From assembly GCA_903836515.1 (NCBI GenBank), contig CAILQW010000005.1, positions 3,280-67,279 of the forward strand: 64,000 nt of DNA, given 5' to 3'. The stretch is from Candidatus Omnitrophota bacterium (GTDB lineage Bacteria > Omnitrophota > Gorgyraeia > Zapsychrales > Fredricksoniimonadaceae). Shown here piece by piece: positions 27,840 to 64,000 of this stretch. The position numbers and the translations under genes are program-made. The notes beneath the pieces are model-generated. The model was not told the DNA's origin. It did not search any database and worked only from the letters and a program-made list of their open reading frames with translations. The stretch's first letter is position 1. The number at the start of each line of letters is the position of its first letter.

Positions 27840-27912
27840 CCGCGCTTAATTTGATAATAGCACTGTTCCCAATGATTTCCGTTCCTTCTTCGTCGGGAGA
27901 ACAAGAGATTTC

Positions 27913-33273: not shown

Positions 33274-33351
33274 AGGATATATTGAATTGTTGTCTTGAAG
33301 TCGATGGCGGCAAGATTTAACCCGCATTTTTCAATAGAAAGAGGCTGGAAG

Positions 33352-49985: not shown

Positions 49986-50609
49986 ATGGCTAAGAAAGAA
50001 ACTGCAGAAGAAAAGCTGCTGAAAATCATCGAGGCCACCCAAAAGGCCAAAGAGGCCCCTGCATCGGCGACAGCCGCGGCCCCGGCTTCGGTCCCGGTTA
50101 AAAGAGCAGCCTCCCCTAAAATCATCATTTCATTCCGCCAGGTCAACACGGTTCTTGCCGTTGCCGCCCTGGCGGCGTTTATTTTTCTCGTGCATGAGGT
50201 CCAGCTCGGGCTGTCCCGTCTCAACGAAGATGTGAGCCTTTCCGTCGATCTTCCTGCGGTGAAAGACGCGGGAGGCCCTGCGGTGCCCCAGCTGAAAACG
50301 GCCGGCTGGTATCTCGACAAGGTCGCGGCACGCAATATTTTTCAACCTTACGAAAAAAGTTCTGCCGGCGGGCAGGGTGTCCCTTCGGATCGCGCCGCCC
50401 TGCAGACCAAGATAGGCAAGTATAAATTCGTCGGCGTGGCCTGGCTTGACGTCCCGGAATCGGCGACGGTGATGCTGGAGAATATTGCCACGAAAGAAAC
50501 CCGTTTCCTGAAAGAGGGCGACAAGATCGAGGATGTAACGGTCAAGACCATTTACACAGACAGGGCGGTCTTCAGTTACGCAAACGAGGAGATAACGATC
50601 AAGTTATGA
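49986..50609 (+). CDS. PilP/GspC-like secretin-associated inner-membrane protein (tentative)
   Basis: N-terminal charged region, one TM (VLAVAALAAFIFLV) and a C-terminal beta-sandwich-like segment (KYKFVGVAWLD...VMLENIATKETRFLKEGDKIEDVTVKTI...AVF) resembling PilP. Its ATGA stop/start overlaps the secretin gene. Confidence 0.5.
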   Translation: MAKKETAEEKLLKIIEATQKAKEAPASATAAAPASVPVKRAASPKIIISFRQVNTVLAVAALAAFIFLVHEVQLGLSRLNEDVSLSVDLPAVKDAGGPAVPQLKTAGWYLDKVAARNIFQPYEKSSAGGQGVPSDRAALQTKIGKYKFVGVAWLDVPESATVMLENIATKETRFLKEGDKIEDVTVKTIYTDRAVFSYANEEITIKL

Positions 50610-52204
50610 CAAACCACACACTTTCCCCCCGGAAGATCGTCCTGACACTGTTCGCGGGTATGGCGGCGGTGCTCGCCATCGCGGGATTTCGTCCCGCGGC
50701 CGCCGAAGAAGCGCAGACGCCCAGGCCGCTGATCATTTCCCAGCCGAAAGAATCTATCGACGAGCGCATGGCCCGCAAGATCGCCCTGGATGTCCGCGAC
50801 ATGAACATTGTGGATGTCCTCAAGTTTCTCGCCACGAAAGGCGAATTTAACGTGGTCATCAGCCCGTCGGTCGACGGACGCACGACAGTCCTCCTGGACA
50901 ATGTGGCCATCAAGGATGCCCTTGACATTGTGGTGATTTCCAGCCGCCTGGCGTACAGCATCCAGAACAATATTGTGCAGGTCATGACCGCCGCGGAGTA
51001 CGAGGGCATGTTCGGCAAGCAGTTCAGCGACAAGACCGTTGTGGCCACGTTCCGCCTGCAGTACGCCAAGCCGAGCTATGTCCTGGCGGCGCTCGACAAT
51101 ATGAAAAGCAATGTCGGGAAGATCATTATAGATGAAGATACCGGCGCGGTGGTCTTGATCGACACGCCTGATTCCATCGCCAAGATGAAAAAAGTGCTGG
51201 CCGACATTGAACAGCCGCTGGAAACGATCGTGTACAACCTGCAGTACGCCAAGGCGGATGTGGTCGCCGACAAGCTGCGCGCCAGGATCGACGCCAAGTC
51301 CGTGGGGTCGATCACGGCGGACGAGCGGTCGAACCAGCTGGTTGTCCGTGTGTTCCCCGGCCGCAAGGACGAGGTGGAGAAGATCGTCCGGCACCTGGAT
51401 GAGCCGACAAAAGAAGTGTTGATCGAGGCGCGGATCCTTCAGGTTATCTTCAAGCCCAGCTATGACGCAGGCATCGACTGGAATATCGCCTCCAGCGACA
51501 AGGCCAACCCCAACCTGCAGTTCAAGAATATTTACATGAATTCAAGCGGCATGAGCGCGACAGACAATCTTTCCACTACGTTCGGCCAGATTGCGGTGGG
51601 CAATATTAACGCGGACCGTTTCGCTCTTAATATCCGCGCGATGAAGCAGGTCAGCGATACCAAGCTTCTTTCGAATCCCAAGATCATGGCGGTTAACAAC
51701 GAGGAGTCCCGTATCCATATCGGCGATACGGTGCCCTATATCATTTCGACCGTGTCCGGCACCGGGGATAATGCTATCACCAGTGAAGATGTCCGTTTCA
51801 TCGATGTCGGCCTCAAGCTGAATGTGACCCCCACCATCAACGATGACGGGATGATCACCCTGAAACTCCGCCCCGAGATATCTTCTGTTGTTGGCAAACT
51901 TCAGTCGAAAAACAGCGGCGGTATCCCGCAAGTCAACAAGACAGAGGTGGAGACAACCCTTGTTGTCGAGGATGGCACGACCATCATCATGGCCGGCTTG
52001 CGTAAAGACGACAAGATCCACACCAAGACAGGTTTGCCCGTTCTCATGGACCTTCCTTACGTGAGCAAATTATTCAGCCGCGATTCCGACAGCATATCTT
52101 CGTCGGAGATCGTCATCTTCATTACACCGCATATTTTGACCGGCAAGGAAAATTACAAGGCGCCCGACGGGACCATCAAGCCGTCGAAGGCCTATAACAA
52201 GTGA
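50606..52204 (+). CDS. Secretin (GspD/PilQ family outer-membrane channel)
   Basis: Signal peptide, N-domains, and a C-terminal secretin domain (LLSNPKIMAVNNEESRIHIGDTVPY...FIDVGLKLNVTPTINDDGMITLKLRPEISSV...VLMDLPYVSKLFSRDSDSISSSEIVIFITPHIL). Confidence 0.85.
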   Translation: MTNHTLSPRKIVLTLFAGMAAVLAIAGFRPAAAEEAQTPRPLIISQPKESIDERMARKIALDVRDMNIVDVLKFLATKGEFNVVISPSVDGRTTVLLDNVAIKDALDIVVISSRLAYSIQNNIVQVMTAAEYEGMFGKQFSDKTVVATFRLQYAKPSYVLAALDNMKSNVGKIIIDEDTGAVVLIDTPDSIAKMKKVLADIEQPLETIVYNLQYAKADVVADKLRARIDAKSVGSITADERSNQLVVRVFPGRKDEVEKIVRHLDEPTKEVLIEARILQVIFKPSYDAGIDWNIASSDKANPNLQFKNIYMNSSGMSATDNLSTTFGQIAVGNINADRFALNIRAMKQVSDTKLLSNPKIMAVNNEESRIHIGDTVPYIISTVSGTGDNAITSEDVRFIDVGLKLNVTPTINDDGMITLKLRPEISSVVGKLQSKNSGGIPQVNKTEVETTLVVEDGTTIIMAGLRKDDKIHTKTGLPVLMDLPYVSKLFSRDSDSISSSEIVIFITPHILTGKENYKAPDGTIKPSKAYNK

Positions 52205-52232: not shown

Positions 52233-53069
52233 ATGAGGCCAGCAAATTCTTGGAAGTTACCGACCATCTTCGCCGCGGCCGCGGGAGTGTTTTTGTTCTC
52301 GGCCCCTCTTGCTGTTGTTGCCGCTGGAGCCGAGGCCGGGGTCCAGAACGCCCAGGTGGATCCTGAATCCCTGAAGAAGGAGATCGAGCGCCTGAAGAAT
52401 GAAAAAGATTACGAGTCCAAACGGGTCGAGGAAATGCGCAGCGAGCGTGAAGAATTTGTCAAGGAGATCCGCCGTGCCGAGAGCCAGAATACCAAACAGA
52501 CCAAGGAGATCGATGGTCTGAAAACCGCCCTTTCCCAGCAGCAGGAATCGTTTGAGGCCCGGATGAAGAAATTCGAGACCGACCTTAAGGATTCCCAGGA
52601 TCTCGGGCAGAGGAAGGCTTCAGTGCAGCCGGCGCCCGGCAGTCGGCCGCCCAGTGCATCTTTTGCCGTTGAAAAGGCAGCCGGAGAGGTCCTGCAGAAG
52701 GGCGGCGACCTTGATCCCGAGGATGAAAAGTTCAAGGAAGAACTGGCCCGTGCCCATTACAACATGGGTAATGTCTATTACGAAAGAGGCGAGTATCAGC
52801 GTGCTGCTGTCGAATACTACCAGGCCGTGGACCTCATGCCGTATGATGCCGATGCGCATTACAACCTGGCGTATGTCAGCGGGGAATTCATCGGCGACCA
52901 GGATGCGGCGCTGAAGCATTATCAGTGGTACCTTTATTTGAAACCCCTGGCCGAAGACCGTAAACTTGTGGAGGAAAAGATCGTCAGCGCGAAACTGACT
53001 GTCCGAAGCCGTGTTGATTCCAGCCTGGACAAGCCTGAGCTTTCCGGCCATCAAAACGTGGCCAGATAA
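52233..53069 (+). CDS. Secreted coiled-coil plus TPR repeat protein (possible pilotin/secretin accessory)
   Basis: Signal peptide, an E/K-rich coiled coil, then TPR-like helices (ARAHYNMGNVYYERGEYQRAAVEYYQAVDLMPYDADAHYNLAYVS). Confidence 0.65.
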   Translation: MRPANSWKLPTIFAAAAGVFLFSAPLAVVAAGAEAGVQNAQVDPESLKKEIERLKNEKDYESKRVEEMRSEREEFVKEIRRAESQNTKQTKEIDGLKTALSQQQESFEARMKKFETDLKDSQDLGQRKASVQPAPGSRPPSASFAVEKAAGEVLQKGGDLDPEDEKFKEELARAHYNMGNVYYERGEYQRAAVEYYQAVDLMPYDADAHYNLAYVSGEFIGDQDAALKHYQWYLYLKPLAEDRKLVEEKIVSAKLTVRSRVDSSLDKPELSGHQNVAR

Positions 53070-53137: not shown

Positions 53138-54718
53138 ATGAATATCAGAACGTCGGCGATCTTCGGGCTTGCGATTATTGTTGGTATTTTTTCACTTCCC
53201 GCCATTTCCCAGGCTAACGATCTTAAAGTATCCAATGTTCGCCTCGGTCCGCGTGATGCGAACGCAAAAACACTCGCGGTATTTTTCGATCTTTCCTGGC
53301 AGAATTCCTGGCGTAACAAGATCAATCATGATGCTGTCTGGGTGACGGTCCGCCTGCAGGATGCCCAGGCAGGTTCTTCCGAAAAGAAGCTGTGCCGCCT
53401 GTCGGTGAGCGGTCTTAACCCGTCCGGCACTTCTGCCGGTTCCAACAGTGACCTGGCCATCCAGGTACCCGCGGACAAAGCCGGGGCTTTTATCCGCCGT
53501 GTGGCCAATCATGCCACAGCTCCGGTCACAACAACCAGTGCCATGGTAACGGTTAATTACGACGCCTGTGGCCTGAGCGCGGCCAGCGAAGTGTCGGCCA
53601 CGCTGGTTGCCCTTGAAATGGTTTATGTTCCGCGCGGCGCATTTTATGCCGGCGATTATGCGGCGTCTCCCGCCGCGTTTCAGCGGGGCGGGGCGGACAA
53701 TAATCCCTGGCCCATCGCCAGCGAGTCCGCCATCAATGTCAGCGCGGCCTCGGCCAACGGATACTACTATGTTTCTGCCGGGAATGCCGGGGAGATGCCT
53801 TCGGCTGCCGCCTTTACGATCCCTGCCGCCTTCCCCAAGGGGTTTGATGCTTTTTATATGATGAAGTACGAGATCACGGAGGGCCAGTGGGTCGAGTTTG
53901 TCAACTCCCTGTCCTTTCCCGCACGTTCCCGGCGGGATGTGACCAATGCTTCCCACAAGAATTCCGATACGGTCATAGCGCGCGATGCCGTGGCATGCGC
54001 GGGATCGCCGCTTGTGTGCACCACCGACAGGCCTTACCGCGCCATGACCTTCCTGTCATGGCCGGACGTGTGTGCGTTCCTTGACTGGGCCGGGTTGCGC
54101 CCGATGACCGAGCTCGAGTTTGAAAAAGCGGCCCGCGGGCCCTTTCTTCCTGTCAACGGCGAATATGCCTGGGGGACGGCGGATATTCAGCCCGTGTCGG
54201 CTTTGTCCAGCGGGGCTGAAGAAGGCGGCGAACTGTCGGCAACGCCGGGCGCCAACGCGCGTTTCGACGGGATACTGCTTTCCGGGGGAGATGCTGCCGG
54301 CGGTTCTTCCTGTCAGGGCGGGCCGCTGAGAGTCGGTATTTTTGCCACGGATGCCTCGAACCGCATATCTTCCGGTGCCGGTAATTACGGGGCCATGGAA
54401 CTTTCTGGAAATGTCAAGGAGTGGACCGTATCCGTGGGCCATTCTGCCGCGCTGGCCTATACCGGGGTTAATGGTGATGGTGCTTTGACCACAACCACGG
54501 GTTTTGAAGGCAATGCGGATACGGCGTTGTGGCCCGGGATGGATGTGGATGCCAGCCATGGCGTGATACATGCCGCCGGAGCCGGGTTTCGCGGCGGCTC
54601 ATGGGCCGATCCGTCCGCCCGTTTGGCGATTTCGGATCGTACGGAAGCGGCGTCCTCCGCTACTGATGCCGCGGCGACCTATGGCGGTCGCGGTGTCCGT
54701 TCGGCGGAAGGCCAGTAA
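53138..54718 (+). CDS. Secreted FGE-sulfatase (SUMF1/formylglycine-generating enzyme) domain protein, paralog 1
   Basis: Signal peptide, a unique N-terminal domain of about 180 aa, then FGE-domain motifs (LEMVYVPRGAFYAGD; YMMKYEITEGQWVEFV; TFLSWPDVCAFLDWAGLRPMTELEFEKAARG; FRGGSWAD). Confidence 0.8.
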   Translation: MNIRTSAIFGLAIIVGIFSLPAISQANDLKVSNVRLGPRDANAKTLAVFFDLSWQNSWRNKINHDAVWVTVRLQDAQAGSSEKKLCRLSVSGLNPSGTSAGSNSDLAIQVPADKAGAFIRRVANHATAPVTTTSAMVTVNYDACGLSAASEVSATLVALEMVYVPRGAFYAGDYAASPAAFQRGGADNNPWPIASESAINVSAASANGYYYVSAGNAGEMPSAAAFTIPAAFPKGFDAFYMMKYEITEGQWVEFVNSLSFPARSRRDVTNASHKNSDTVIARDAVACAGSPLVCTTDRPYRAMTFLSWPDVCAFLDWAGLRPMTELEFEKAARGPFLPVNGEYAWGTADIQPVSALSSGAEEGGELSATPGANARFDGILLSGGDAAGGSSCQGGPLRVGIFATDASNRISSGAGNYGAMELSGNVKEWTVSVGHSAALAYTGVNGDGALTTTTGFEGNADTALWPGMDVDASHGVIHAAGAGFRGGSWADPSARLAISDRTEAASSATDAAATYGGRGVRSAEGQ

Positions 54719-54750: not shown

Positions 54751-56379
54751 ATGCTAAAAAAAATCATTTTTTCGACCGTTGCCTGCGCATTGATTTCTTT
54801 TCCCGCTTTCGCCAACAACCTCCAGCTCAATCATTTTGATCTCTACGCTTCGGAGGCCTCCGCGCACCGGATGACCTTTACGCTGGATATCCGTCAGGAC
54901 AACAGCTGGCGCAGCGCGGCGTCCCATGATGCGGTGTGGATTTTTATGAAGTACTCCACGGATGCGGGACAGACATGGCATCACGCCAGCATGGGTGGCA
55001 TCGGCCTTAACCCGTCGGGGTTTGCAAGCCCCCAGGGATTCGAGATCCTTGTTCCCGCCGACATGAAAGGGTTCTTTTTTCGCCGGGCCGATATTCTGAC
55101 GGGGGCCCTGGATGCCAAGGCGGTTCATTTTGTGTGGAACTACGCGCAGGACGGTATTTCCGACGATACAGCCAATGCGGCCAATACCCTGACAAAGGTT
55201 TTTGGGCTCGAGATGGTTTATATCCCTGAAGGGGCTTTCTTTGCCGGTGACGGGGCGAGCGCGTCCCCCTTCCGTTTCAAGCAGGGGAGTGCGGATGACA
55301 GCCCGTGGTATATTTCCAGCGAGAATGCGATCACGACGACCAATACCGCTTCGGCTGGATTTTATTATCAGTCGACCGGGGCGTCCGGCGAGAATCTGTC
55401 GGGGGACGTGTTTTTGGTGCCCAACTCTTTTCCCAAGGGATATAAGGCTTTTTACCTGATGAAGTATGAGCTGACCGAGGGGGAGTGGACTGAATTTTTC
55501 AATGCCCTTTCTGCGGCAGCCAAAGCGACCCGCGATATCACAGCCTCCCTCAATGGCGGCAAGAATTCAACCGGTGTGGTTGACCGCAATACGGTGGCCT
55601 GGGATCCCGTTTATCCGTCACGCCCTGCGGTCACGATGCGTCCTTCCCGCGCGATGAGCTATATTTCCTGGCCTGATGCGGCGGCGTATGCGGATTGGGC
55701 CGGCCTGCGCCCCATGACGGAACTTGAGTTTGAAAAGGCGGCGCGGGGGGTGGATGTCAATTCCGTTACAGACGAATTTGCTTGGGGGAGTGCCAGTTAC
55801 AGCGCTGCCACCGCTGACCAGATATTTCCCGCCAATCAGGATGAGAATGGCACCGAAGCGGTTTTGAATGGAGCGGCCAATCTTAACCGGAATGCCCTGG
55901 GATGGACTTCCGGTGACGGGCGTCCCGGCGGGGCGGCGGAAGGTCAGAAGGGTCCTTTGCGTGCCGGAATTTTTGCGGAAAATTCGACAGCCCGCGTGAC
56001 CAGCGGCGGCGGATATTACGGCGCCATGGAACTTTCGGGAAATCTCGCCGAGCCGGCCGTCACGGTGGGCCGCGCGGAAGGCCGCCAGTTTTTAGGCTCC
56101 CACGGGGATGGCGAACTTTCAACGATATCAGGACATGAGGGGAATGCTACCAATGTGGATTGGCCCGGCATTGACGTTTCCGATGCGCGGCGCGGGGTGG
56201 ACAGGACGCTGGGGATCGGGTATCGCGGCGGCGATTTCCAGTCTGCCAGCATCCGCGATTTTCAGGTATCCGCGCGCAGTTTTGCCGCGAAAGATCCTGA
56301 CAGCGCGGGGTTTAAACAGCGCCACGATGCATCTTCCGGCATTTATTATGGCGCGCGCCTGGCCCGCACGGCCCCGTGA
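54751..56379 (+). CDS. Secreted FGE-sulfatase domain protein, paralog 2 (tandem duplicate)
   Basis: Same architecture as paralog 1 and about 45-50% identical by eye (LEMVYIPEGAFFAGD; YLMKYELTEGEWTEFF; SYISWPDAAAYADWAGLRPMTELEFEKAARG; YRGGDF). Confidence 0.8.
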   Translation: MLKKIIFSTVACALISFPAFANNLQLNHFDLYASEASAHRMTFTLDIRQDNSWRSAASHDAVWIFMKYSTDAGQTWHHASMGGIGLNPSGFASPQGFEILVPADMKGFFFRRADILTGALDAKAVHFVWNYAQDGISDDTANAANTLTKVFGLEMVYIPEGAFFAGDGASASPFRFKQGSADDSPWYISSENAITTTNTASAGFYYQSTGASGENLSGDVFLVPNSFPKGYKAFYLMKYELTEGEWTEFFNALSAAAKATRDITASLNGGKNSTGVVDRNTVAWDPVYPSRPAVTMRPSRAMSYISWPDAAAYADWAGLRPMTELEFEKAARGVDVNSVTDEFAWGSASYSAATADQIFPANQDENGTEAVLNGAANLNRNALGWTSGDGRPGGAAEGQKGPLRAGIFAENSTARVTSGGGYYGAMELSGNLAEPAVTVGRAEGRQFLGSHGDGELSTISGHEGNATNVDWPGIDVSDARRGVDRTLGIGYRGGDFQSASIRDFQVSARSFAAKDPDSAGFKQRHDASSGIYYGARLARTAP

Positions 56380-56529: not shown

Positions 56530-59500
56530 ATGAGAATAAATAAAAGACTGAAATTTATTCAACAGACATGGTTGCGTTGTGCCGTTACACTTATTATTAA
56601 TATCTTAATAAGTGGGCTGGCGGCAACGTATGCGCATGCCCAGTTTTCCGGCGGCGCGGAGAACGGCAATGCCACAGCCACCATTGGCAGCGATATTTTT
56701 ACAGGCGGCGCCCAGAACGGCACCACCAGCGCCACCTCCGGCAGCAACGGATCCCTTTCCTACGGGGATGCCACCCACATCGCCTTTTTGGTAACCCCTT
56801 CCAGCATCAAGCATGGCAATACCTTCGAACGTCAGCCGGTTGTGGCGGTGTTGGATGCCAGCGGCAATGTTGTGGCGGGCGATAATTCCACCCGCATTTC
56901 TCTCGCCATTCAGAACAATCCCGGTGCCGGAACATTAAACGGCACAACCTCTGTCACGGTTGTCCATGGTCTGGCGGCATTCACAGATCTTGGCATCACG
57001 CGTGCCGGCAATCTTTACACGATCATCGCGCGGGCCGACGGGCTGGGCAGCGCGGTTTCGGATGCCTTTGATGTTTTTGCGGGAACCGGCGCGAAGTTTG
57101 CGGCCATATGGGATGCGTCCCAGACGGCTTATTACATTTACAGCTGGATCGAGACGGACGGCCAGCGGCAGCCCATTACAACATCCAATGCCTATTGCAT
57201 GCCGCATCAAATCTGGAGATCTTCTTCAGGCACCCTTGTTTCCGAGAAAGCGGCCTGGACGCCGACAGTTGATGATGACAAAAACTGGTGTTTCAGCTCC
57301 GGCAGCAAATGGACGCCCAGCAACAGGGACGATTCTTATTTTATTTCTTTCGGGATCAACTGGGATGGCGGTCCTTTCGATGCCTACTCCTCCCTTGAGA
57401 TCACGGCCATGAATATTGCCGGCGTCAACTGGGATGACATTGCCGCGATGAAAGGCAAGATCGATGCGGTCAACTGGCAAAATATCGATGACATGGCCAA
57501 GTCGGATATCAACTGGGATGACGTGGCCCACATGGCTGCTGCGGCCGTGAACTGGGAATACCTGGGCGTCCTGCGTTCCGACATTGTGGACATCAAGAAT
57601 GTCACCGACCAGATGAGCGGGATCAACTGGACCAGTGCCAGGGACATGACCAATGCCGGGATCCAGTGGGCGGATGTCAGCGCCATGACCGCGGCGGGCA
57701 TCAACTGGGATGACCTGTACGCCATGACGCGCCAGGGGGTGAACTGGCAGGATATCGGCATTTTGTCATCGATTGGCATCAACTGGGACGATATCGGTGT
57801 TTTCTCCCAGGCCGCTGTCAACTGGTATGACATTGCCCGGCTCGCCGGGGTGGGTATCAACTGGCAGGATATTTCGGAACTGGCCGGCGCAGGCATCAAC
57901 TGGTACGACCTTGATGCGTTGTCTGTCGCCGGGGTGAACTGGACGGATCTCGCCATCATGACCGGGGCCGGGGTTAACTGGCCCGATCGTGTCAATTGGG
58001 ACAATCTGGCGGAACTCACCACAGCGAATATCAACTGGGACGACCTGACCGTCATGTCCGAGCAGGGCCTGAACTGGTATGACCTTGATGTGCTTACCGA
58101 GGCCGGGATCAACTGGAATGATCTTAACGCGCTGACGGTGGCCGGTATCAATTGGTATGACATCGAAGCCATGAGCACGGGCGGGGTGAACTGGAGTGAT
58201 ATCCAGGTCTTGTCCGCGGCGGGCGTCAACTGGCAGGATGTGAATGTGTTGACCCTTATCGCGGTCAACTGGAGCGATATCCAGGCGATGTCAGCAGCCG
58301 GGGTGAACTGGAATGATGTGGGGGAACTTTCCGCAGCCGGGGTGAACTGGAATGATATGGAGGCTTTGTCGCTCGCCGGGCTCAACTGGTCTGATATGAG
58401 CGCCTTTTCCCAGGCGCAGATCAACTGGAATGACATCCAGGCGTTTACCTCCGCCGGGGTGAACTGGAATGATCTTGGCGCCATGGCGGCCGCGGGTGTT
58501 AACTGGGATGATGTCCAGGCCCTGACCCATGTGGGTGTGAATTGGCAGGATATTGAGGCCTTGGGCGGGGCGGGGATCAACTGGGCCGATATCGGGCTCT
58601 TGTCCGCGCAAGGGGTGAACTGGTCGGATGTGGGATCGTTGACCGCCGCAGGCATCAACTGGGATGATGTGCAGGCCATGACCCGGATCGGCATGAACTG
58701 GTCGGATATGTCCGCTTTGTCTGCCGCCGGTGTCAATTGGTCGGATCTTGCCGGACTTTCCACCCGTGCGGTAAATTGGACGGATATACAGGCGCTGACC
58801 GCAGCAGGCATGAATTGGGACGACCTCCAGGCATTTTCCGCCGCGGGGATCAACTGGCAGGACATTCAGGTCCTGACAACCACTGCGGTCAATTGGGATG
58901 ATATTCAGGTTTTGTCTGCCGCGGGTGTTAATTGGTCGGATATTCAGGCTTTCACTAATATAGGGGTCAATTGGAATGATATCAGCCGGATGGCTGCTGC
59001 CGGTGTGAATTGGGATGATGTTCAGAGTCTTTCTGTAACCGGCGTCAATTGGACGAATCTTGCGGTGATGGGTGCGGCCGGGATCAATTGGGAAGATGTC
59101 AATACCCTGACCACGCGCGGCATTAACTGGGATAATGTCGAGGTGTTTGCCGCCGCCGGGATCAACTGGTCGGATGTGCAGACACTGACAGTCGCCGGTG
59201 TGAACTGGGATGATATTCAGCGGATGAGTATCAGCACCGTCAATTGGGATGATATGGCCGTGTTGTCTTCCACGGGCATCAACTGGGATGATCTTGCCAC
59301 GCTGTCCGGCAAGGGCGTCAATTGGGATGATCTTCTCGCGTTGACGTCCAAGGGTATCAACTGGGATAATCTGGCGGTCATGGCCGCTGACGGGATCAAC
59401 TGGACCGATATCGGGCGCATGGCCGGCGAAGGTATTAATTGGAGTGATATCGCCGTTTTCACGGTGGCTGGTGTCAACTGGGAGGATGTCGCTGTCCTTT

Positions 59501-62500
59501 CGGCTACGGGTGTCAATTGGCATGATATCGGCGTGTTCACGGCCGAGGGGATTAACTGGGGCGATATCCAGGCGTTGGCCGCGGCCGGCGTGAACTGGAC
59601 TGACGTCGGGGCCATGACTGCTGCCGGCGTCAACTGGGACGATATCGTTACCATTTCCCGAAAGGCGGTCAACTGGGATGATGTGACAGCCCTGTCTTCT
59701 GCCGGGGTTAACTGGACGGATATCCAGGAGATGTCCCAGCGCGGCGTCAACTGGGATGATGTTGCTGTCCTGGCCCGCACGGGTGTGAATTGGGACGATA
59801 TCGCGGTGCTGGCGTCGCGCGGCGTGAATTGGGACGATGTTCAGCATTTGGCGGCGTCAAATGTGAATTGGGATGATATTGGCCGACTGACAGTTACAGG
59901 TGTGAACTGGGACGATCTCTACAGCCTGTCGGTCAAGGGGGTCAACTGGGATGATGTCCTTGTCCTGACCAACGCCGGCGTGAACTGGGCGGATATAGGT
60001 GATCTGTCGTCGCGTGGTGTTAATTGGTCCGATATTGCCCGCATGGCCGATGCCGGGATCAACTGGGATGATGCACAGGCCTTGACCGCGGTCGGGGTGA
60101 ATTGGCACGATGTGGCTGTGTTGACAACCGCCGGATTGAACTGGTCGGATGTGAATGCCATGGCCTCAGCGGGTGTTAACTGGGGGGATATCGCCCTCCT
60201 GAGCGCGACGGGGGTCAACTGGGACGATGTCCAGGCCATGGCCGCCAAAGGTGTCAACTGGGATGGGCTGGCAAGCCTCGCGGCCGCTGGGGTCAACTGG
60301 ACGGATATTTCTGTGTTAGCAGCAACCGGAGTGAACTGGTCTGATGTCAATGCCATGACTGTGGCCGGGGTCAATTGGGATAACCTGACATCCATGACCA
60401 CATCCGGGGTGAATTGGGCGGATCTGACAACGCTGACATGGGCGCAGGTCAATTGGGATGATGTGAGTGCGCTTTCCGCGAAAGGTGTCAACTGGACAGA
60501 TCTCGGGGCCATGAGTGCGGCGGGGATAAACTGGCTGGATATCAGCACGTTGGCGGTTGCAGGTGTTAACTGGGATGACCTTCATGTCCTTTCCCAGGGT
60601 GGCATCAACTGGTCTGATATCGAGGTGTGGTCCGCTGCTGGTGTGAACTGGGCTGACATCGGGGCTGTAAGCGTGGCGGGTGTTAACTGGATGGATATCC
60701 AGGTGTTGACCAGCGCAGGTGTCAATTGGAGCGACCTGGAACGATTGGGTGTTAGCGGTGTTAACTGGGATGATCTGGCTGTTCTGGCCGGGACAGGTGT
60801 CAACTGGCTCGATCTTCAGTCGTTCACCATCGCCGGGATCAATTGGAACGACCTCGCGGTCCTTACAGCCAATAATGTGAACTGGGATGATATTACACGT
60901 CTTTCTGCCGCGGGTGTGAACTGGGAAGATGTGGGTACCATGGCGGCCTCCGGTCTCAATTGGGAAGATATTCAGCAAATGACCGCCAAGGGGATTAATT
61001 GGACGGATATCGCCGCGTTCACATCTTCTTCTATTAATTGGGCTGATCTGCAGGTACTGGCGGGGACGGGTGTTAACTGGAATGATATCCAGGTCCTCTC
61101 GCTGCAGGGTGTGAACTGGGTGGACATCGGGGGGCTTGCCGCCGCAGGGATCAACTGGACAGATCTCCAGGCGCTCGCATCAACGGGAGTGAACTGGAGC
61201 GATATCAGCGTCATGTCCGTGCAGGGGGTCAATTGGGATGATATTAATACCCTTTCCACGCGCGGGGTGAACTGGGAGGATGTGGCTGTCCTCGCGGGTA
61301 AAGGTATTAATTGGAATGATATCCAGGCATTGTCGTTGAGCGGCCTTAACTGGTTTGATATGGAGGCCATGACAACAGCGGGCGTGAACTGGGATGATCT
61401 CCAGGCCATGGCCGGCAAAGGCGTGAACTGGGATGACATCCAGGTCCTGAGCGGACGCGGTATCAATTGGGTCGATGTTGATACGCTTTCCAAGGCGGGC
61501 GTTAACTGGTCTGATATCGTGGCGTTGAGCACAACGGGTGTGAATTGGAACGATCTTGAAGTTTTAGCGGCAGCGGGTGTGAACTGGGAGAACCTCCAGT
61601 CACTGGCCGGCACAGGGATTAACTGGGACGATATCCAGGTGCTCTCCGTCCGCGGGATCAACTGGGATGATATTGTGGCCATGTCGCAGGGGGGCGTGAA
61701 CTGGTCGGATATCGGCGCGCTTTCCTTGGCCGGGGTGAATTGGAATGATATGGGGCTGTTGGCGCAGGCCGGTGTGAACTGGGCTGATATTGATGCTATG
61801 ACGACCGTTGCCGTGAACTGGGATAACGTTCAGGCGATGTCCGTGGCAGGGATCAACTGGGCCGATGCCGGTGCCTTAACCACGGCCGGCGTCAACTGGA
61901 CCGACATGAATGTGCTGACCGCTGCGGGAGTTAACTGGGCCGATGTGGGCGCCCTCAGCGCGGCGGGAGTGAACTGGGGCGACATCAACACACTGACCGC
62001 GGCCGGGGTGAATTGGGCGGATGTCAGTGCCTTGGCGGGGGCCGGCATTAATTGGGCAGATGTAGGTTCCTTGAGTGCCGTCGGGGTGAACTGGTTTGAT
62101 GTGAGTGCCCTCACGGTGGCGGGCGTGAACTGGGATAATATTCAGCTGATGTCTGCGGCCGGTGTCAACTGGGATAATGTGACGGTGATGGGGACTTCCG
62201 GTGTGAACTGGGCGGATATTGCGGCCTTGAGTGCGGCAGAGGTCAACTGGTCGGATGTCAATGCGCTTACGGCGGCCGGGGTCAACTGGAGCGATATTGG
62301 CATATTAAGCGATGCCGCTGTGAATTGGGACAATGTGCAGGTGCTTTCCATCGCGGGTGTTAACTGGGACGACCTTAATGTGATATCCCGGACCGGTGTG
62401 AACTGGACGGATATCGGTGCCCTGAGCGAGGCGGGCGTGAACTGGGCCGATGTAAATGCCTTGACGGTGGCGGGCATGAACTGGGACAGCCTGCAGTCAC

Positions 62501-64000
62501 TTTTTAACGCCGGGGTGAATTGGACCGATCTTGATAGCTTAAGTGTTGCCGGCGTCAACTGGGATAACGTCCAGGCCTTGACGACGGCAGGTGTGAACTG
62601 GACGGATGTGAACGCGTTGACCAACACCGGGGTGAACTGGGATGACCTGGTCCAGATGAGCCGCACCGGAGTGAACTGGGAAGACTTGAATCACATGAGC
62701 ACCGTGGGGGTCAACTGGGAAGATTTGAATCTGATGAACAGCCTGGGGATCAACTGGACCGACATGCAGGTTCTGACGACCGCCGGCGTAAATTGGGACA
62801 ATGTGACATCCTTGAGTGTGTCGGGCGTGAACTGGACGGATGTGGAGGCCTTGAGCGCGTCAGGTGTGAATTGGGCCGATATTGGCGCGATGAGCCTGTC
62901 GGGCGTCAATTGGTCGGATATCGGCACGATGGCCGGTGCAGGGGTGAACTGGGCTGACATCGGCACCATGAGCGGCGTCGGTGTTAATTGGGAAGATGTC
63001 GGCGTTCTGGCGCGCACAGGGATCAACTGGACGGATGTGGGTGCCCTGACAGCCGCAGGTGTGAACTGGCTGGATGTCAATGCCCTGACCATGGCCGGCG
63101 TCAACTGGGATAATGTGAATACATTGACAACCGCCGGCGTCAATTGGGCGGATGTCACCTCTTTTTCGGCGGCTGGAATTAACTGGGATGACCTTACCAC
63201 GCTGACGCTTCACGGAGTTAATTGGCAGGATATCGCCGTGATGACCGCCGCCGGCGTGAACTGGGCGGATGTTAACACGTTGACGGGCGCAGGTGTGAAT
63301 TGGGATAACCTTCAGGCGCTGTCAACTGCAGCGGTGAACTGGTCGGATGTGACCCTGCTCACCACAGCGGGCGTGAACTGGTCGGATATGAATGCCCTGA
63401 CCATCAGCGGCGTTAACTGGGATAATCTGCAGGCGATGGCTGCTGCGGGTGTGAACTGGACAGATATGGCCACCTTGACAGTGGCTGGCGTGAACTGGGC
63501 CGATGTGAATGCGTTGACGGCCGCGGGCGTGAACTGGTTGGATATGACCATACTCACGACAACCGCGGTAAACTGGTCTGAGCTGGAAAACCTCACGGTC
63601 GCGGGGGTGAACTGGTCCGATCTTGCTGTTATGGCACAGGCTGGCGTGAACTGGGCGGACGTGAACGCGTTGACCAATGCCGGCGTGAATTGGGATGGCA
63701 TTAATACCTTAAGTCTGGCGGGCGTTAACTGGGATAATATCCAGACCATGTCCGTAGCGGGCGTTAACTGGGATGACCTTAATAGTTTGACCACGACCGG
63801 TGTGAATTGGACGGACATGGCTGTGATGGGGGCCATGGGCGTTAACTGGGCGGATATCAATGTTCTTTCGATGTCAGGGGTTAATTGGAGTGATGTCCAG
63901 ACGCTGACATCCGCCGGGGTCAATTGGGACAACATGCAGGCATTGACCGCGGCCGGGGTGAACTGGTCCGATGTGAATGCGCTTAGCGCCGCGGGCATTA
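56530..64000 (+). CDS. Mega repeat protein, 5' portion (at least 2490 aa in window; continues past the end): signal peptide, Ig-like (Big) domain, then about 170 tandem 13-aa GVNWxDIxALSAA units
   Basis: ATG at 56530 gives MRINKRLKFIQQTWLRCAVTLIINILISGLAATYAHAQ (signal), a G/S/T/N-rich linker, a Big-like beta domain (ATHIAFLVTPSSIKHGNTFERQPVVAVLDASGNVVAGDNSTRISLAI...), then the repeat array. The frame was checked at 57355, 59593 and 63961. The ORF track misses it because no stop lies in the window; minus-strand ORFs 57384-63998 are its antisense shadows. Confidence 0.8.
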   Translation, partial: MRINKRLKFIQQTWLRCAVTLIINILISGLAATYAHAQFSGGAENGNATATIGSDIFTGGAQNGTTSATSGSNGSLSYGDATHIAFLVTPSSIKHGNTFERQPVVAVLDASGNVVAGDNSTRISLAIQNNPGAGTLNGTTSVTVVHGLAAFTDLGITRAGNLYTIIARADGLGSAVSDAFDVFAGTGAKFAAIWDASQTAYYIYSWIETDGQRQPITTSNAYCMPHQIWRSSSGTLVSEKAAWTPTVDDDKNWCFSSGSKWTPSNRDDSYFISFGINWDGGPFDAYSSLEITAMNIAGVNWDDIAAMKGKIDAVNWQNIDDMAKSDINWDDVAHMAAAAVNWEYLGVLRSDIVDIKNVTDQMSGINWTSARDMTNAGIQWADVSAMTAAGINWDDLYAMTRQGVNWQDIGILSSIGINWDDIGVFSQAAVNWYDIARLAGVGINWQDISELAGAGINWYDLDALSVAGVNWTDLAIMTGAGVNWPDRVNWDNLAELTTANINWDDLTVMSEQGLNWYDLDVLTEAGINWNDLNALTVAGINWYDIEAMSTGGVNWSDIQVLSAAGVNWQDVNVLTLIAVNWSDIQAMSAAGVNWNDVGELSAAGVNWNDMEALSLAGLNWSDMSAFSQAQINWNDIQAFTSAGVNWNDLGAMAAAGVNWDDVQALTHVGVNWQDIEALGGAGINWADIGLLSAQGVNWSDVGSLTAAGINWDDVQAMTRIGMNWSDMSALSAAGVNWSDLAGLSTRAVNWTDIQALTAAGMNWDDLQAFSAAGINWQDIQVLTTTAVNWDDIQVLSAAGVNWSDIQAFTNIGVNWNDISRMAAAGVNWDDVQSLSVTGVNWTNLAVMGAAGINWEDVNTLTTRGINWDNVEVFAAAGINWSDVQTLTVAGVNWDDIQRMSISTVNWDDMAVLSSTGINWDDLATLSGKGVNWDDLLALTSKGINWDNLAVMAADGINWTDIGRMAGEGINWSDIAVFTVAGVNWEDVAVLSATGVNWHDIGVFTAEGINWGDIQALAAAGVNWTDVGAMTAAGVNWDDIVTISRKAVNWDDVTALSSAGVNWTDIQEMSQRGVNWDDVAVLARTGVNWDDIAVLASRGVNWDDVQHLAASNVNWDDIGRLTVTGVNWDDLYSLSVKGVNWDDVLVLTNAGVNWADIGDLSSRGVNWSDIARMADAGINWDDAQALTAVGVNWHDVAVLTTAGLNWSDVNAMASAGVNWGDIALLSATGVNWDDVQAMAAKGVNWDGLASLAAAGVNWTDISVLAATGVNWSDVNAMTVAGVNWDNLTSMTTSGVNWADLTTLTWAQVNWDDVSALSAKGVNWTDLGAMSAAGINWLDISTLAVAGVNWDDLHVLSQGGINWSDIEVWSAAGVNWADIGAVSVAGVNWMDIQVLTSAGVNWSDLERLGVSGVNWDDLAVLAGTGVNWLDLQSFTIAGINWNDLAVLTANNVNWDDITRLSAAGVNWEDVGTMAASGLNWEDIQQMTAKGINWTDIAAFTSSSINWADLQVLAGTGVNWNDIQVLSLQGVNWVDIGGLAAAGINWTDLQALASTGVNWSDISVMSVQGVNWDDINTLSTRGVNWEDVAVLAGKGINWNDIQALSLSGLNWFDMEAMTTAGVNWDDLQAMAGKGVNWDDIQVLSGRGINWVDVDTLSKAGVNWSDIVALSTTGVNWNDLEVLAAAGVNWENLQSLAGTGINWDDIQVLSVRGINWDDIVAMSQGGVNWSDIGALSLAGVNWNDMGLLAQAGVNWADIDAMTTVAVNWDNVQAMSVAGINWADAGALTTAGVNWTDMNVLTAAGVNWADVGALSAAGVNWGDINTLTAAGVNWADVSALAGAGINWADVGSLSAVGVNWFDVSALTVAGVNWDNIQLMSAAGVNWDNVTVMGTSGVNWADIAALSAAEVNWSDVNALTAAGVNWSDIGILSDAAVNWDNVQVLSIAGVNWDDLNVISRTGVNWTDIGALSEAGVNWADVNALTVAGMNWDSLQSLFNAGVNWTDLDSLSVAGVNWDNVQALTTAGVNWTDVNALTNTGVNWDDLVQMSRTGVNWEDLNHMSTVGVNWEDLNLMNSLGINWTDMQVLTTAGVNWDNVTSLSVSGVNWTDVEALSASGVNWADIGAMSLSGVNWSDIGTMAGAGVNWADIGTMSGVGVNWEDVGVLARTGINWTDVGALTAAGVNWLDVNALTMAGVNWDNVNTLTTAGVNWADVTSFSAAGINWDDLTTLTLHGVNWQDIAVMTAAGVNWADVNTLTGAGVNWDNLQALSTAAVNWSDVTLLTTAGVNWSDMNALTISGVNWDNLQAMAAAGVNWTDMATLTVAGVNWADVNALTAAGVNWLDMTILTTTAVNWSELENLTVAGVNWSDLAVMAQAGVNWADVNALTNAGVNWDGINTLSLAGVNWDNIQTMSVAGVNWDDLNSLTTTGVNWTDMAVMGAMGVNWADINVLSMSGVNWSDVQTLTSAGVNWDNMQALTAAGVNWSDVNALSAAGI
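57355..64000 (+). repeat. 39-nt tandem repeat array (about 170 copies, very homogeneous), coding
   Basis: Period of 39 nt between successive aactgg cores (for example aactggtatgacattgcccggctcgccggggtgggtatc|aactgg), with rare truncated units such as the 18-nt aactggcccgatcgtgtc. Example run: GINWDDVQAMTRI | GMNWSDMSALSAA | GVNWSDLAGLSTR | AVNWTDIQALTAA. Confidence 0.9.

What the first reader, a model, noticed from the sequence alone, without database searches (positions are those of the whole stretch)
56530..64000. Open-ended mega-gene of about 170 near-identical 13-residue tandem units (G-V-N-W-x-D-I-x-A-L-S-A-A) behind a signal peptide and Ig-like domain
Seen in sequence. From 57355 to the window edge the + strand is a single frame of 39-nt units. 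N, W and D are invariant at fixed positions, hydrophobic I/V/L/M at others, and each unit has an A/G-rich turn. The array is preceded by about 275 aa of signal peptide, a low-complexity linker and a Big-like beta domain. The gene continues beyond the window, so the full protein exceeds 2490 aa, probably by far. I do not recognise this 13-residue W-containing periodicity as any named repeat class; it is not LRR, pentapeptide, HEAT, TPR, RTX, PATR or a collagen-like repeat. A 13-residue unit with one short amphipathic helix (WxDIxxL) and a Gly turn suggests a novel solenoid or superhelical fibre. The extreme nucleotide-level homogeneity implies recent expansion or concerted evolution and makes this a likely assembly-collapse hotspot, so true copy number may be higher. 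The supplied ORF track shows only broken antisense ORFs with a QLTPAAV-type pseudo-repeat, so standard annotation would probably mis-call or miss this gene.
Basis: seen in the sequence. Interest (0 to 1): 0.95.

Follow-up and report, generated by a model that had tools for sequence, protein, structure and literature searches.

The report
Giant secreted 13-residue helix-repeat protein
A real, open-ended gene of an Omnitrophota bacterium encodes a secreted protein built from about 170 diverged copies of an unnamed 13-amino-acid helix-plus-turn unit; it belongs to a family seen almost only in that phylum (868 to 8,087 residues) that lies in a conserved gene block next to an outer-membrane secretin channel, and it probably forms a long cell-surface fibre.

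Summary
Frame +1 from 56530 is open for 2,490 codons. It encodes a signal peptide, a conserved Gly/Ser/Thr-rich segment, two Ig-like beta-sandwich domains and about 168 units of G-[VI]-N-W-x-D-[IVL]-x-x-[LM]-[ST]-x-A. The last 154 units keep an unbroken 13-residue register.

The claim of near-identity is wrong. Units average 57% nucleotide and 48% amino-acid identity, all are distinct, and third codon positions are close to random. The array is old and held by selection on the protein, not recently expanded.

Three independent assemblies match the window exactly, and one extends the ORF to 2,718 codons without a stop. Nearly every short-read contig ends inside the array.

Relatives named by their source are almost all Candidatus Omnitrophota. 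They share one gene order: GspC-like, secretin, TPR, two FGE-fold proteins, then the NW protein. Complete members have 868 to 8,087 residues and a conserved helical C-terminal tail.

No Pfam, NCBIfam or PDB family explains the unit. The Lysostaphin_N and CW_7 hits are periodicity or local matches.

Capping residues, AlphaFold secondary structure and i+3/i+4 covariation indicate one short capped helix per unit. The tertiary fold is unresolved (pLDDT about 45).

Best reading: a length-variable extracellular stalk or fibre linked to the neighbouring secretin machine.

The parts
56530..56643 (+). Start codon and Sec-type signal peptide (aa 1-38, MRINKRLKF...ATYAHA|Q)
   Evidence: Translation. Homologs align with the same K/R-rich n-region, hydrophobic core and A-x-A|Q site. 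AF2 models a single N-terminal helix at aa 2-35. The cleavage site is read from the sequence and was not predicted with a dedicated tool.
56644..56769 (+). Conserved Gly/Ser/Thr/Asn-rich segment (aa 39-80) with motifs QFSGG and IGSDIFTGG
   Evidence: pLDDT is about 30 with no secondary structure. The motifs are nevertheless conserved across homologs.
56770..57399 (+). Two tandem Ig-like beta-sandwich domains (about aa 81-185 and 186-290)
   Evidence: AF2 pLDDT 70-90, all-beta. Foldseek against the PDB matches Ig/FN3-like tandem domains at E about 1e-5: 7nit BbgIII, 8s80 Sap, 4kkp RbmA. The first domain also matches Big_1-bearing proteins in the homolog search.
57400..57987 (+). Proximal, irregular NW units (aa 291-486). 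Spacings of 15, 25 and 26 residues come first, then 8 regular units and the first part of the conserved half-unit GVNWPDRVNW (57970-57999), which straddles the boundary at 57987/57988.
   Evidence: Spacing list. These proximal units and the half-unit align position for position in orthologs.
57988..63993 (+). 154 consecutive 13-residue units in perfect register (aa 487-2488), consensus G-[VI]-N-W-x-D-[IVL]-x-x-[LM]-[ST]-x-A
   Evidence: One helix per unit in both AF2 models. Covariation shows an i+3/i+4 pattern.
63994..64000 (+). Start of the next unit, cut by the window edge. The ORF continues.
   Evidence: The identical contig L001 continues the open frame to 2,718 codons.
49986..50609 (+). 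207-aa membrane protein, weakly GspC-like, overlapping the secretin start
   Evidence: NCBIfam GspC E 5e-4. Pfam T2SSB E 0.006. The L015 ortholog carries PF11356 T2SSC. Syntenic in all loci.
50606..52204 (+). Outer-membrane secretin (PilQ/GspD-like)
   Evidence: Pfam Secretin 3e-46 and Secretin_N 1.8e-21. NCBIfam PilQ 2e-73 and GspD 7.5e-66, both below the equivalog cut-offs.
52233..53069 (+). TPR protein with a coiled-coil N-terminal half, weakly PilW/Tgl-like
53138..54718 (+). FGE-fold (SUMF1-like) secreted protein, paralog 1
   Evidence: Pfam FGE-sulfatase 2.3e-14, partial coverage of the profile. Signal peptide read from the sequence.
54751..56379 (+). FGE-fold secreted protein, paralog 2, immediately upstream of the giant gene
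   Evidence: Pfam 2e-12. 2,766 homologs at E<=1e-30, and all those named are Omnitrophota. 57 of 118 orthologs have no Cys in the mature part.

Best explanation
The region is the 5' part (at least 2,718 codons in total; the end is unknown) of a genuine chromosomal gene of a Candidatus Omnitrophota bacterium.

Architecture shown: a Sec signal peptide, a conserved flexible segment, two Ig-like domains, then an array of about 170 or more diverged 13-residue units.

Unit structure, partly shown and partly inferred: each unit is one short amphipathic alpha-helix of about 9 residues. N3 with D6 reads as an N-terminal capping box. V2 with I7 reads as a hydrophobic staple. W4, I7, L10 and S/T11 form the apolar face. 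G1 closes the turn. These residue roles are my reading from general helix-capping knowledge.

Fibre model, inferred: the helices stack into an elongated alpha-solenoid-like rod on the order of 100 nm for the part seen. This length was not computed.

C-terminus, by analogy: complete homologs end in a conserved helical tail of about 250 residues finishing ...VVVK[TSA]W[FY]E-x-[ED]. This gene probably does too.

Function, inferred from context: the gene lies in a gene order conserved across the Omnitrophota relatives examined (GspC-like, secretin, PilW-like TPR, two non-canonical FGE-fold proteins, NW protein, a C-terminally membrane-anchored coiled-coil protein, and further on GspE/F/G). The most likely role is an extracellular stalk or fibre. 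It would be exported by Sec and then passed through, or assembled at, the neighbouring secretin. The Ig-like domains would act as a binding head and the repeat number would set the reach.
For: Real coding gene:
- 0 stops in 2,490 codons against 19-185 in the other frames. Codon-position identity among units is 0.57, 0.73 and 0.43.
- Three independent assemblies are identical to the window.
- The surrounding genes are housekeeping genes: DnaE, tRNA synthetases, glycine cleavage.

Old, selected array:
- All units are distinct, with 57% nt identity and saturated synonymous sites.

Helix per unit:
- DSSP places a helix at unit positions 4-12 in two independent AF2 runs.
- Mean-field DCA on 1,866 three-unit windows (Meff 1,527) gives its strongest couplings at 6-9, 8-12, 5-8, 9-12, 9-13 and 7-10, reproduced in all three unit copies.
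- There is no Pro and no Cys in the array.

Family:
- An exhaustive profile search found 589 representatives at E<=1e-3 and 36 at E<=1e-30 among 1.84 billion proteins.
- All but one of the NW-repeat proteins that carry a taxon name are Omnitrophota; one is labelled Elusimicrobia.
- Complete members have 868, 900, 1,292, 2,809 and 8,087 aa and share the C-terminal tail.

Context:
- The same gene order occurs in L004, L005, L007-L011, L015, L016, L018 and L019.
- In the distant locus L006 the FGE-fold gene overlaps the start of the NW gene although the other neighbours differ.
- The downstream neighbour has a signal peptide, a coiled coil and a C-terminal TM helix.
- GspE/F/G genes lie downstream.
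- The NW N-terminal region evolves faster (34-63% identity) than the secretin (62-89%), as surface proteins often do.
Against: - The tertiary structure is not established. AF2 gave pLDDT 45 and pTM 0.25 for 16 units, and about 40 for the repeats in the N-terminal model.
- Inter-unit covariation is weak.
- No structure in the PDB resembles the model.
- Nothing here shows expression, export or passage through the secretin.
- Much of the neighbourhood, from glycine cleavage genes to ATP synthase, is syntenic among these genomes. Adjacency is therefore partly conserved gene order rather than proof of a functional link.
- The C-terminus of this particular gene was not seen.
- The N-terminal 4,757 residues of the 8,087-aa relative were not inspected.
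- Fibre length is an estimate from general helix-packing distances.
Confidence: 0.6

Rival explanations
1. Envelope-internal scaffold. The protein stays in the periplasm or on the inner face of the outer membrane. It would act as a tether, ruler or coat held by the downstream membrane-anchored coiled-coil protein, and would not be threaded through the secretin.
For: It has a Sec signal peptide only and no recognisable outer-membrane or cell-wall anchor. Complete homologs have a helical C-terminal tail. The next gene encodes a signal peptide, coiled coil and C-terminal TM protein. No evidence of secretin passage was obtained.
Against: A rod of 170-580 units would exceed the width of any periplasm, and Omnitrophota are reported as ultra-small cells (10.1101/2023.11.21.568195). 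The Ig-like head and the faster evolution relative to neighbours fit an exposed protein. The GspC-like, secretin and TPR genes lie immediately upstream.
Confidence: 0.2
2. Multivalent ligand-binding array. The invariant Trp, with Asn and Asp, would be solvent-exposed in every unit and bind a repetitive ligand such as prey cell-wall glycan or Ca2+. The array would then be an adhesive surface rather than an inert spacer.
For: There is one invariant W, N and D per unit. The array in this organism is strongly acidic (D+E 11%, K+R 1.6%). A 14-residue stretch resembles the helix-turn of the peptidoglycan-binding CW_7 repeat. Omnitrophota giant proteins have been proposed to bind prey surfaces (10.1101/2023.11.21.568195).
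Against: N3, D6, V2 and I7 fit a helix capping box with a hydrophobic staple. W4 lies on the same helical face as I7, L10 and S/T11, which suggests a core position (my reading from the sequence). The acidity is not conserved: the 8,087-aa relative has K/R at position 12 in 170 of 238 units. No CW_7 stretch passes on its own.
Confidence: 0.12
3. The unit belongs to an already named repeat family, either the Pfam Lysostaphin_N 13-residue repeats or CW_7.
For: Over the whole 2,490 aa, PF25533 scores 133 bits (cut-off 60) and PF08230 scores 57 bits (cut-off 25). Two homologs carry a precomputed PF25533 hit.
Against: A 780-aa piece scores only 34 bits for PF25533, so the score accumulates from the shared period. 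BLASTP of 40 units against lysostaphin pro-repeats found no alignment at E<=100; that sequence was recalled from memory. No M23 peptidase domain is present. CW_7 has no stretch that passes alone and covers only 14 of 40 profile positions. Only 2 of the NW-repeat homologs carry a precomputed PF25533 hit.
Confidence: 0.03
4. The array is an assembly artefact, such as a collapsed or chimeric repeat, or the + strand call is wrong.
For: Contigs end inside the array in almost every assembly. One scaffold has an N gap inside the array.
Against: There were zero mismatches between the window and three independent assemblies over 6.2-7.5 kb. All units are distinct. No frame other than +1 is open, and the codon-position pattern fits +1. 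Orthologs in other genomes have the same architecture.
Confidence: 0.02
5. The repeats form a flexible or largely disordered acidic chain, an entropic spacer or bristle without a fixed fold.
For: AF2 confidence is very low across the repeats. Inter-unit covariation is weak.
Against: Hydrophobic and capping residues are strictly conserved over hundreds of units despite synonymous saturation. Covariation shows a helix pattern. There is not a single indel in 154 units here or across 236 consecutive spacings in L012.
Confidence: 0.05

Closest known systems
Omnitrophota giant proteins (Archaeovorins and Dockerin-type; West-Roberts et al., bioRxiv 10.1101/2023.11.21.568195; also 10.64898/2026.06.07.730766)
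   Same: Same phylum. Very long, repeat-rich proteins predicted to be extracellular, encoded next to type II secretion or type IV pilus-like genes (gspD/E/F). They fragment short-read assemblies. Repeats are reported as old and diverged rather than recent nucleotide tandems.
   Different: The described classes have 30,000 or more residues, many TM regions, SecA-DEAD, HEAT/TPR or dockerin/TSP3 domains. Here Pfam found none of these in the 2,490 residues scanned. No 13-residue Trp repeat turned up in keyword searches of either paper. Sizes here range from 868 to 8,087 aa.
Giant rod-like bacterial adhesins built from tandem extender modules (for example S. aureus Ebh with helical FIVAR-GA modules, or BIg-repeat adhesins such as SiiE and LapA); named from my own knowledge
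   Same: A terminal binding region plus a long array of tandem modules whose copy number varies between lineages and sets the reach.
   Different: The modules there are 70-126-residue domains exported by sortase or type I systems. Here the module is a 13-residue single helix, and the context is Sec plus a secretin.
Alpha-solenoid repeat families (TPR, HEAT, Sel1, PPR, TALE); named from my own knowledge
   Same: Tandem amphipathic helices. The weak Foldseek matches of the low-confidence model were designed helical toroids and a TALE repeat protein.
   Different: Those units have 33-47 residues with two helices. This unit has 13 residues with one helix and no 26- or 39-residue super-period. No sequence or confident structural similarity was found.
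Pfam CW_7 (PF08230), the cell-wall-binding repeat of Cpl-7-type lysins
   Same: Local resemblance over 14 residues covering profile positions 21-34 of 40.
   Different: CW_7 is modelled as a unit of about 40 residues. No individual stretch passes the threshold, and the rest of the profile is not matched.
Pfam Lysostaphin_N (PF25533), 13-residue pro-region repeats
   Same: Period of 13 residues. The summed score exceeds the cut-off for the whole protein.
   Different: No shared conserved residues. BLASTP gave no alignment. There is no M23 peptidase.

Membership tests
Pfam Lysostaphin_N (PF25533) | Whole-protein score above the gathering cut-off (60 bits) | tested here: inconclusive
   133 bits over 2,490 aa, but only 34 bits for a 780-aa piece. 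The score grows with the number of 13-residue periods.
Pfam Lysostaphin_N (PF25533) | Residue-level similarity to the lysostaphin pro-region repeats | tested here: not met
   BLASTP of 520 aa of the array against lysostaphin pro-repeats found no alignment at E<=100. The lysostaphin sequence was recalled from memory.
Pfam Lysostaphin_N (PF25533) | N-terminal extension of an M23 peptidase | tested here: not met
   No peptidase domain was found in the 2,490 aa scanned or in the Pfam scan of complete homolog P0017.
Pfam CW_7 (PF08230) | A full unit of about 40 residues matched by at least one stretch that is significant on its own | tested here: not met
   0 stretches pass. The best stretch covers profile positions 21-34 of 40.
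Omnitrophota Archaeovorin-type giant protein | 30,000 or more aa, numerous TM regions, SecA-DEAD and HEAT domains (10.1101/2023.11.21.568195) | tested here: not met
   Pfam found none of these domains in the 2,490 residues scanned. I see no hydrophobic segment after the signal peptide in the translation. The largest family member seen has 8,087 aa. The C-terminal part of this gene is unseen.
Omnitrophota Dockerin-type giant protein | Dockerin, EF-hand and TSP3 repeats | tested here: not met
   No such Pfam hits.
Substrate or fibre of a secretin (T2SS/T4P-like) system | N-terminal Sec signal peptide | tested here: met
   Read from the sequence and conserved in homologs. No dedicated signal-peptide predictor was available.
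Substrate or fibre of a secretin (T2SS/T4P-like) system | Conserved genetic linkage to secretin, GspC-like and pilotin-like genes and to GspE/F/G | tested here: met
   Weight is limited because the wider region is also syntenic.
Substrate or fibre of a secretin (T2SS/T4P-like) system | Secretin-dependent export shown experimentally | not testable with these tools
   Needs genetics or fractionation in an Omnitrophota culture or a heterologous host.
Alpha-solenoid / helical repeat protein | Each unit forms an alpha-helix | tested here: met
   DSSP on two AF2 models. Covariation at i+3 and i+4. Capping-box residues.
Alpha-solenoid / helical repeat protein | Regular inter-unit packing into a superhelix | tested here: inconclusive
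   pLDDT 40-45 and pTM 0.25. Inter-unit couplings are weak. No PDB analogue was found.
Canonical formylglycine-generating enzyme (for the two upstream genes) | Two catalytic cysteines (established FGE biochemistry, from my own knowledge) and a CxPxR/SxPxR substrate motif | tested here: not met
   57 of 118 FGE2 orthologs have no Cys in the mature part and 47 have one. The array contains no Cys and no Pro, so it has no such motif. The Pfam match covers only profile positions 35-142 of 255.

The most novel reading that the evidence does not exclude
The NW unit would be a new structural class: a single-helix solenoid repeat of only 13 residues, shorter than the two-helix units of the named alpha-solenoid families I compared it with. 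It would build rods hundreds of nanometres long that ultra-small Omnitrophota extend through a dedicated secretin, assembled with two non-catalytic FGE-fold proteins and a membrane-anchored base protein, as a length-tunable tether to reach host or prey cells.
Probability: 0.25. Interest if true: 0.8.

Novelty: new variant of a known kind. Interest (0 to 1): 0.6.

Why it matters
Omnitrophota are widespread ultra-small bacteria. The cited preprints describe members as predatory or host-dependent, and their giant proteins are thought to mediate cell contact, but their structures are mostly unknown.

This locus defines a compact, well-delimited family that is tractable for three reasons:
- The repeat is extremely regular and, in these searches, unnamed.
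- The family has a natural length series from 868 to 8,087 residues.
- It sits in a fixed genetic context beside a secretin.

The short complete members could be expressed to solve the fold. That would test whether a 13-residue single-helix unit forms a rod.

The finding also has practical consequences. The locus is a systematic contig breakpoint in short-read Omnitrophota assemblies. In one gapped scaffold the gene was replaced by antisense ORF calls. The Pfam Lysostaphin_N hit could propagate a wrong name.

Tried and rejected
- Pfam and NCBIfam scans of the N-terminal region, the repeats, the C-terminal tail and the downstream neighbour gave no meaningful family.
- PDB sequence searches with single sequences and with a 16-unit profile found nothing below E 0.1.
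- AlphaFold2 on 16 units with an in-phase alignment of 12 blocks gave pLDDT 45. Foldseek of that model found nothing.
- A first alignment of 135 overlapping blocks was unusable because MAFFT aligned the true overlaps.
The single-protein query worked.
- A super-period of 2-7 units was tested and not found.
- Inter-unit DCA contacts were sought, but only weak signals and same-position lineage signals appeared.
- Literature searches for the motif strings and for an Omnitrophota surface fibre returned nothing relevant.
- The idea that FGE2 is a PorK/GldK-like lipoprotein was rejected. The signal-peptide Cys is not conserved, and the cleavage site reads AFA|NN.
- Classical formylglycine modification of the array was rejected because the array has no Cys and no Pro.
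- The 3' end of this organism's gene could not be found. Every contig carrying the locus stops inside the array.
Full report

The + strand frame starting at the ATG at 56530 has no stop for 2,490 codons up to the window edge. The other five frames carry 19-185 stops over the same stretch.

The translation contains 169 NW dipeptides, and 162 of the gaps between successive ones are exactly 13 residues. After a conserved half-unit (GVNWPDRVNW, aa 481-490), 154 units follow with no insertion or deletion (nt 57988-63993).

In 162 regular units, N3 and W4 are invariant. G1 occurs in 144 units and D6 in 141.

**2.

The units are not near-identical. Mean pairwise identity is 57% at the nucleotide level (maximum 90%) and 48% at the protein level, and no two units are the same. 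TRF reports only short patches at 68-84% matches.

Identity per codon position is 0.57, 0.73 and 0.43. Four-fold sites are close to random, with Gly codons GGG/GGT/GGC at 45/43/41. This is an old array with saturated synonymous sites, maintained by selection on the protein. It is not a recent expansion or a product of concerted evolution.

The only clear higher-order duplication is a block with a lag of 42 units and about 85% nt identity (aa 2007-2110 against 2553-2660). Its second copy lies just beyond the window.

**3. Is it an artefact?**

The upstream gene's product is found on at least 20 contigs from public assemblies. Three of them (ENA ERZ27313161, ENA ERZ27313059 and Logan ERR4193021) match the window with zero mismatches over 6.2-7.5 kb of the array. 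One extends the open frame to 2,718 codons.

The gene caller of the collection called the + strand ORF on these contigs. All of these contigs stop inside the array. So do the orthologous loci L005-L010, L016, L018 and L019. L011 was truncated by the fetch limit rather than by a contig end, and L015 carries a 100-N gap and also runs off its scaffold end.

On scaffold L015, with its 100-N gap inside the array, the roughly 2,550-aa ORF was not called and antisense ORFs were listed instead. The locus is therefore an assembly breakpoint and occasionally an annotation trap. The sequence seen is not collapsed.

**4. The N-terminal part.**

Residues 1-38 look like a Sec signal peptide ending AHA|Q. 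Residues 39-80 are Gly/Ser/Thr/Asn-rich and were predicted without structure, but they carry motifs conserved across homologs (QFSGG and IGSDIFTGG).

Residues about 80-290 are modelled as two beta-sandwich domains with pLDDT 70-90. Their best PDB matches are tandem Ig/FN3-like domains at E about 1e-5, including BbgIII 7nit, S-layer Sap 8s80 and RbmA 4kkp. The first domain also matches Big_1-bearing proteins.

**5. The unit.**

Both AlphaFold2 runs place one helix at unit positions 4-12 and a four-residue turn. Confidence is low: pLDDT 45 and pTM 0.25 for 16 units, and about 40 for the repeats in the N-terminal model.

An independent, sequence-only test supports the helix. Mean-field DCA on 1,866 non-identical three-unit windows from the family (effective number 1,527) gives its strongest couplings at positions 6-9, 8-12, 5-8, 9-12, 9-13 and 7-10. 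These are i+3 and i+4 pairs, and they are reproduced in each of the three unit copies.

From general helix-capping knowledge, I read the conserved residues as follows:
- N3 with D6 form an N-cap and N3 capping box.
- V2 with I7 form a hydrophobic staple.
- G1 is the C-terminal Gly of the preceding helix.
- W4, I7, L10 and S/T11 share one helical face.

The array has no Pro and no Cys. In this organism it is strongly acidic (D+E 11%, K+R 1.6%). That acidity is not a family trait: the 8,087-aa relative has K/R at position 12 in most units. No 2-7-unit super-period exists.

Inter-unit covariation is weak, and the model has no PDB analogue (best E 0.04, a designed helical repeat protein). How the helices pack therefore remains unknown.

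**6. Known families.**

Pfam gives two hits over the whole protein. Lysostaphin_N scores 133 bits against a cut-off of 60. CW_7 scores 57 bits against a cut-off of 25.

Neither is convincing:
- A 780-aa piece scores only 34 bits for Lysostaphin_N, so the score simply accumulates with the shared period of 13.
- BLASTP against the lysostaphin pro-repeats, a sequence I recalled from memory, found no alignment.
- No CW_7 stretch passes on its own, and only 14 of 40 profile positions are matched.
- NCBIfam and PDB sequence and profile searches are empty.

**7. The family.**

A word-indexed search found about ten relatives. Almost all that carry a name are Candidatus Omnitrophota MAGs, and they share the same N-terminal architecture at 35-58% identity.

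An exhaustive HMMER search with a 16-unit profile against 1.84 billion representatives gave 589 hits at E<=1e-3, 161 at E<=1e-10 and 36 at E<=1e-30. Most are contig-end fragments, and some weak hits are unrelated 13-periodic proteins. Named cluster members are all Omnitrophota.

Complete members have 868 aa (P0002), 900 aa (P0022), 1,292 aa (P0019, with a LamG-type N-terminus) and 2,809 aa (P0017, with a large N-terminal extension). On a 1.34-Mb contig (GCA_964572155.1) there is an 8,087-aa gene. Its last 3,330 residues contain 238 units, 236 of whose spacings are exactly 13, followed by the tail.

All complete members end with a conserved helical tail of about 250 residues. It carries TD-x-S....LFG motifs and finishes ...VVVK[TSA]W[FY]E-x-[ED].

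GTDB genomes hold five orthologous loci at 44-68% identity. Their open frames reach at least 3,253, 3,032, 2,553, 1,257 and 4,066 aa.

The proximal units and the half-unit are orthologously conserved. Length variation therefore lies in the distal array.

**8. Context.**

The window is chromosomal, with DnaE, HisRS, a class II tRNA synthetase, PhoH and glycine cleavage genes.

Immediately upstream lie, in order:
- A 207-aa membrane protein that is weakly GspC-like. Its ortholog in L015 carries PF11356 T2SSC.
- A PilQ/GspD-like secretin.
- A TPR protein that is weakly PilW/Tgl-like.
- Two secreted FGE-fold paralogs.

This order, together with two GT2 genes and DUF2304 further upstream, recurs in eleven other loci. 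In the distant locus L006 the other neighbours differ, but an FGE-fold gene still overlaps the start of the NW gene.

Where the 3' side is visible (L004 and L012), the next gene encodes a conserved 434-aa protein. It has a signal peptide, two beta domains, a coiled coil and a C-terminal TM anchor, and no Pfam family. An F-type ATP synthase operon follows, then GspE, GspF and pseudopilin genes.

The FGE-fold proteins are unlikely to be canonical formylglycine-generating enzymes. Half of 118 FGE2 orthologs have no cysteine in the mature part, and the array has no Cys or Pro and so no CxPxR motif.

The NW N-terminal region diverges faster than its neighbours (34-63% identity against 62-89% for the secretin).

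**9. Most likely mechanism.**

Shown: this is a Sec-targeted protein with Ig-like domains and a long array of capped short helices, conserved in a secretin-containing gene block.

Inferred:
- The helices stack into an elongated rod.
- The protein is exported and passed through, or assembled at, the neighbouring secretin.
- The Ig-like domains form a binding head.
- The helical tail, perhaps with the membrane-anchored neighbour, forms the base.
- The unit number sets the reach (33 units in P0002, at least 170 here, at least 238 seen in L012 and possibly several hundred more).

This agrees with the published proposal that Omnitrophota giant proteins near type II secretion-like loci mediate contact with prey or hosts (10.1101/2023.11.21.568195). 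However, this protein lacks the defining features of the Archaeovorin and Dockerin-type classes, and keyword searches of that paper and of a 2026 survey found no such repeat.

The main caveats are the low-confidence fold, the absence of any expression or localisation data, the general synteny of the region, and the unseen 3' end.

**10. Verdict.**

This is a real and unusually regular feature.

In the libraries and literature searched, the repeat is an unnamed helical repeat family with a very short unit, found mainly in Omnitrophota. It is a new variant of a known kind, the giant repeat-built surface proteins that are already a theme in this phylum. Interest is 0.6.

Noticed in passing
window 17964-33273: A second cluster of very large genes: a 3,291-aa ORF (17964-27839) with only weak DUF11 and Big_6 hits, then a 1,786-aa TPR-rich ORF (27913-33273) and an AsmA/YhdP-like gene (33295-35112). 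TRF found no tandem nucleotide repeats there.
   Followed up: partly
window 38266-41535 and 11568-14276: A 1,089-aa ORF and a 902-aa ORF with no Pfam family at the thresholds used.
   Followed up: no
window 57970-57999 (aa 481-490): A half-unit, GVNWPDRVNW, interrupts the register once. The same interruption sits at the same place in the aligned orthologs that reach this position (for example INWSSQINW and VNWDETINW). The proximal units are therefore position-specific and ancient.
   Followed up: partly
L001 17800-19933 (aa 2007-2110 against 2553-2660 of the gene, beyond the window): A segmental duplication with a lag of 42 units (1,638 nt) and about 85% nt identity. It is the only part of the array with high internal similarity and lies near where several assemblies break.
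   Followed up: partly
L015 19371-19470: A 100-N scaffold gap lies inside an orthologous array. On this scaffold the gene caller omitted the open ORF of about 2,550 aa and listed three antisense ORFs of 144-220 aa.
   Followed up: yes
L004 12610-13917; L012 10001-11305: The gene after the NW gene encodes a conserved protein of about 434 aa with no Pfam or NCBIfam family (123 homologs, 38-67% identity). It has a signal peptide, two similar beta segments, a coiled coil and a C-terminal TM anchor.
   Followed up: partly
window 54751-56379 and orthologs P0293-P0412: The FGE-fold protein upstream belongs to a very large family (2,766 hits at E<=1e-30) whose named members are all Omnitrophota. Its mature part often has no cysteine, so it is probably not a catalytic formylglycine-generating enzyme.
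   Followed up: partly
P0033 (aa 400-600), P0017, P0019: NW units also occur as a module in other architectures. They follow a repetitive Gly-rich (GGLVG-type) N-terminal region in P0033, a 1,500-aa extension with Rha78A-like Ig domains in P0017, and an N-terminus that NCBI annotates as LamG in P0019.
   Followed up: no
L004 13933-22607; L012 11325-21305: An F-type ATP synthase operon sits between the NW locus and the GspE/GspF/pseudopilin genes in both loci where the 3' side is visible. A small OSCP-domain gene also appears upstream near the GT2 genes in several loci.
   Followed up: no
window 56638-56720 (aa 37-64): The predicted mature N-terminus, Q-[FY]-[ST]-G-G ... I-G-x-D-I-[FY]-x-G-G, is conserved in most homologs even though it lies in a segment predicted as unstructured. 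It may be a recognition or processing motif.
   Followed up: no
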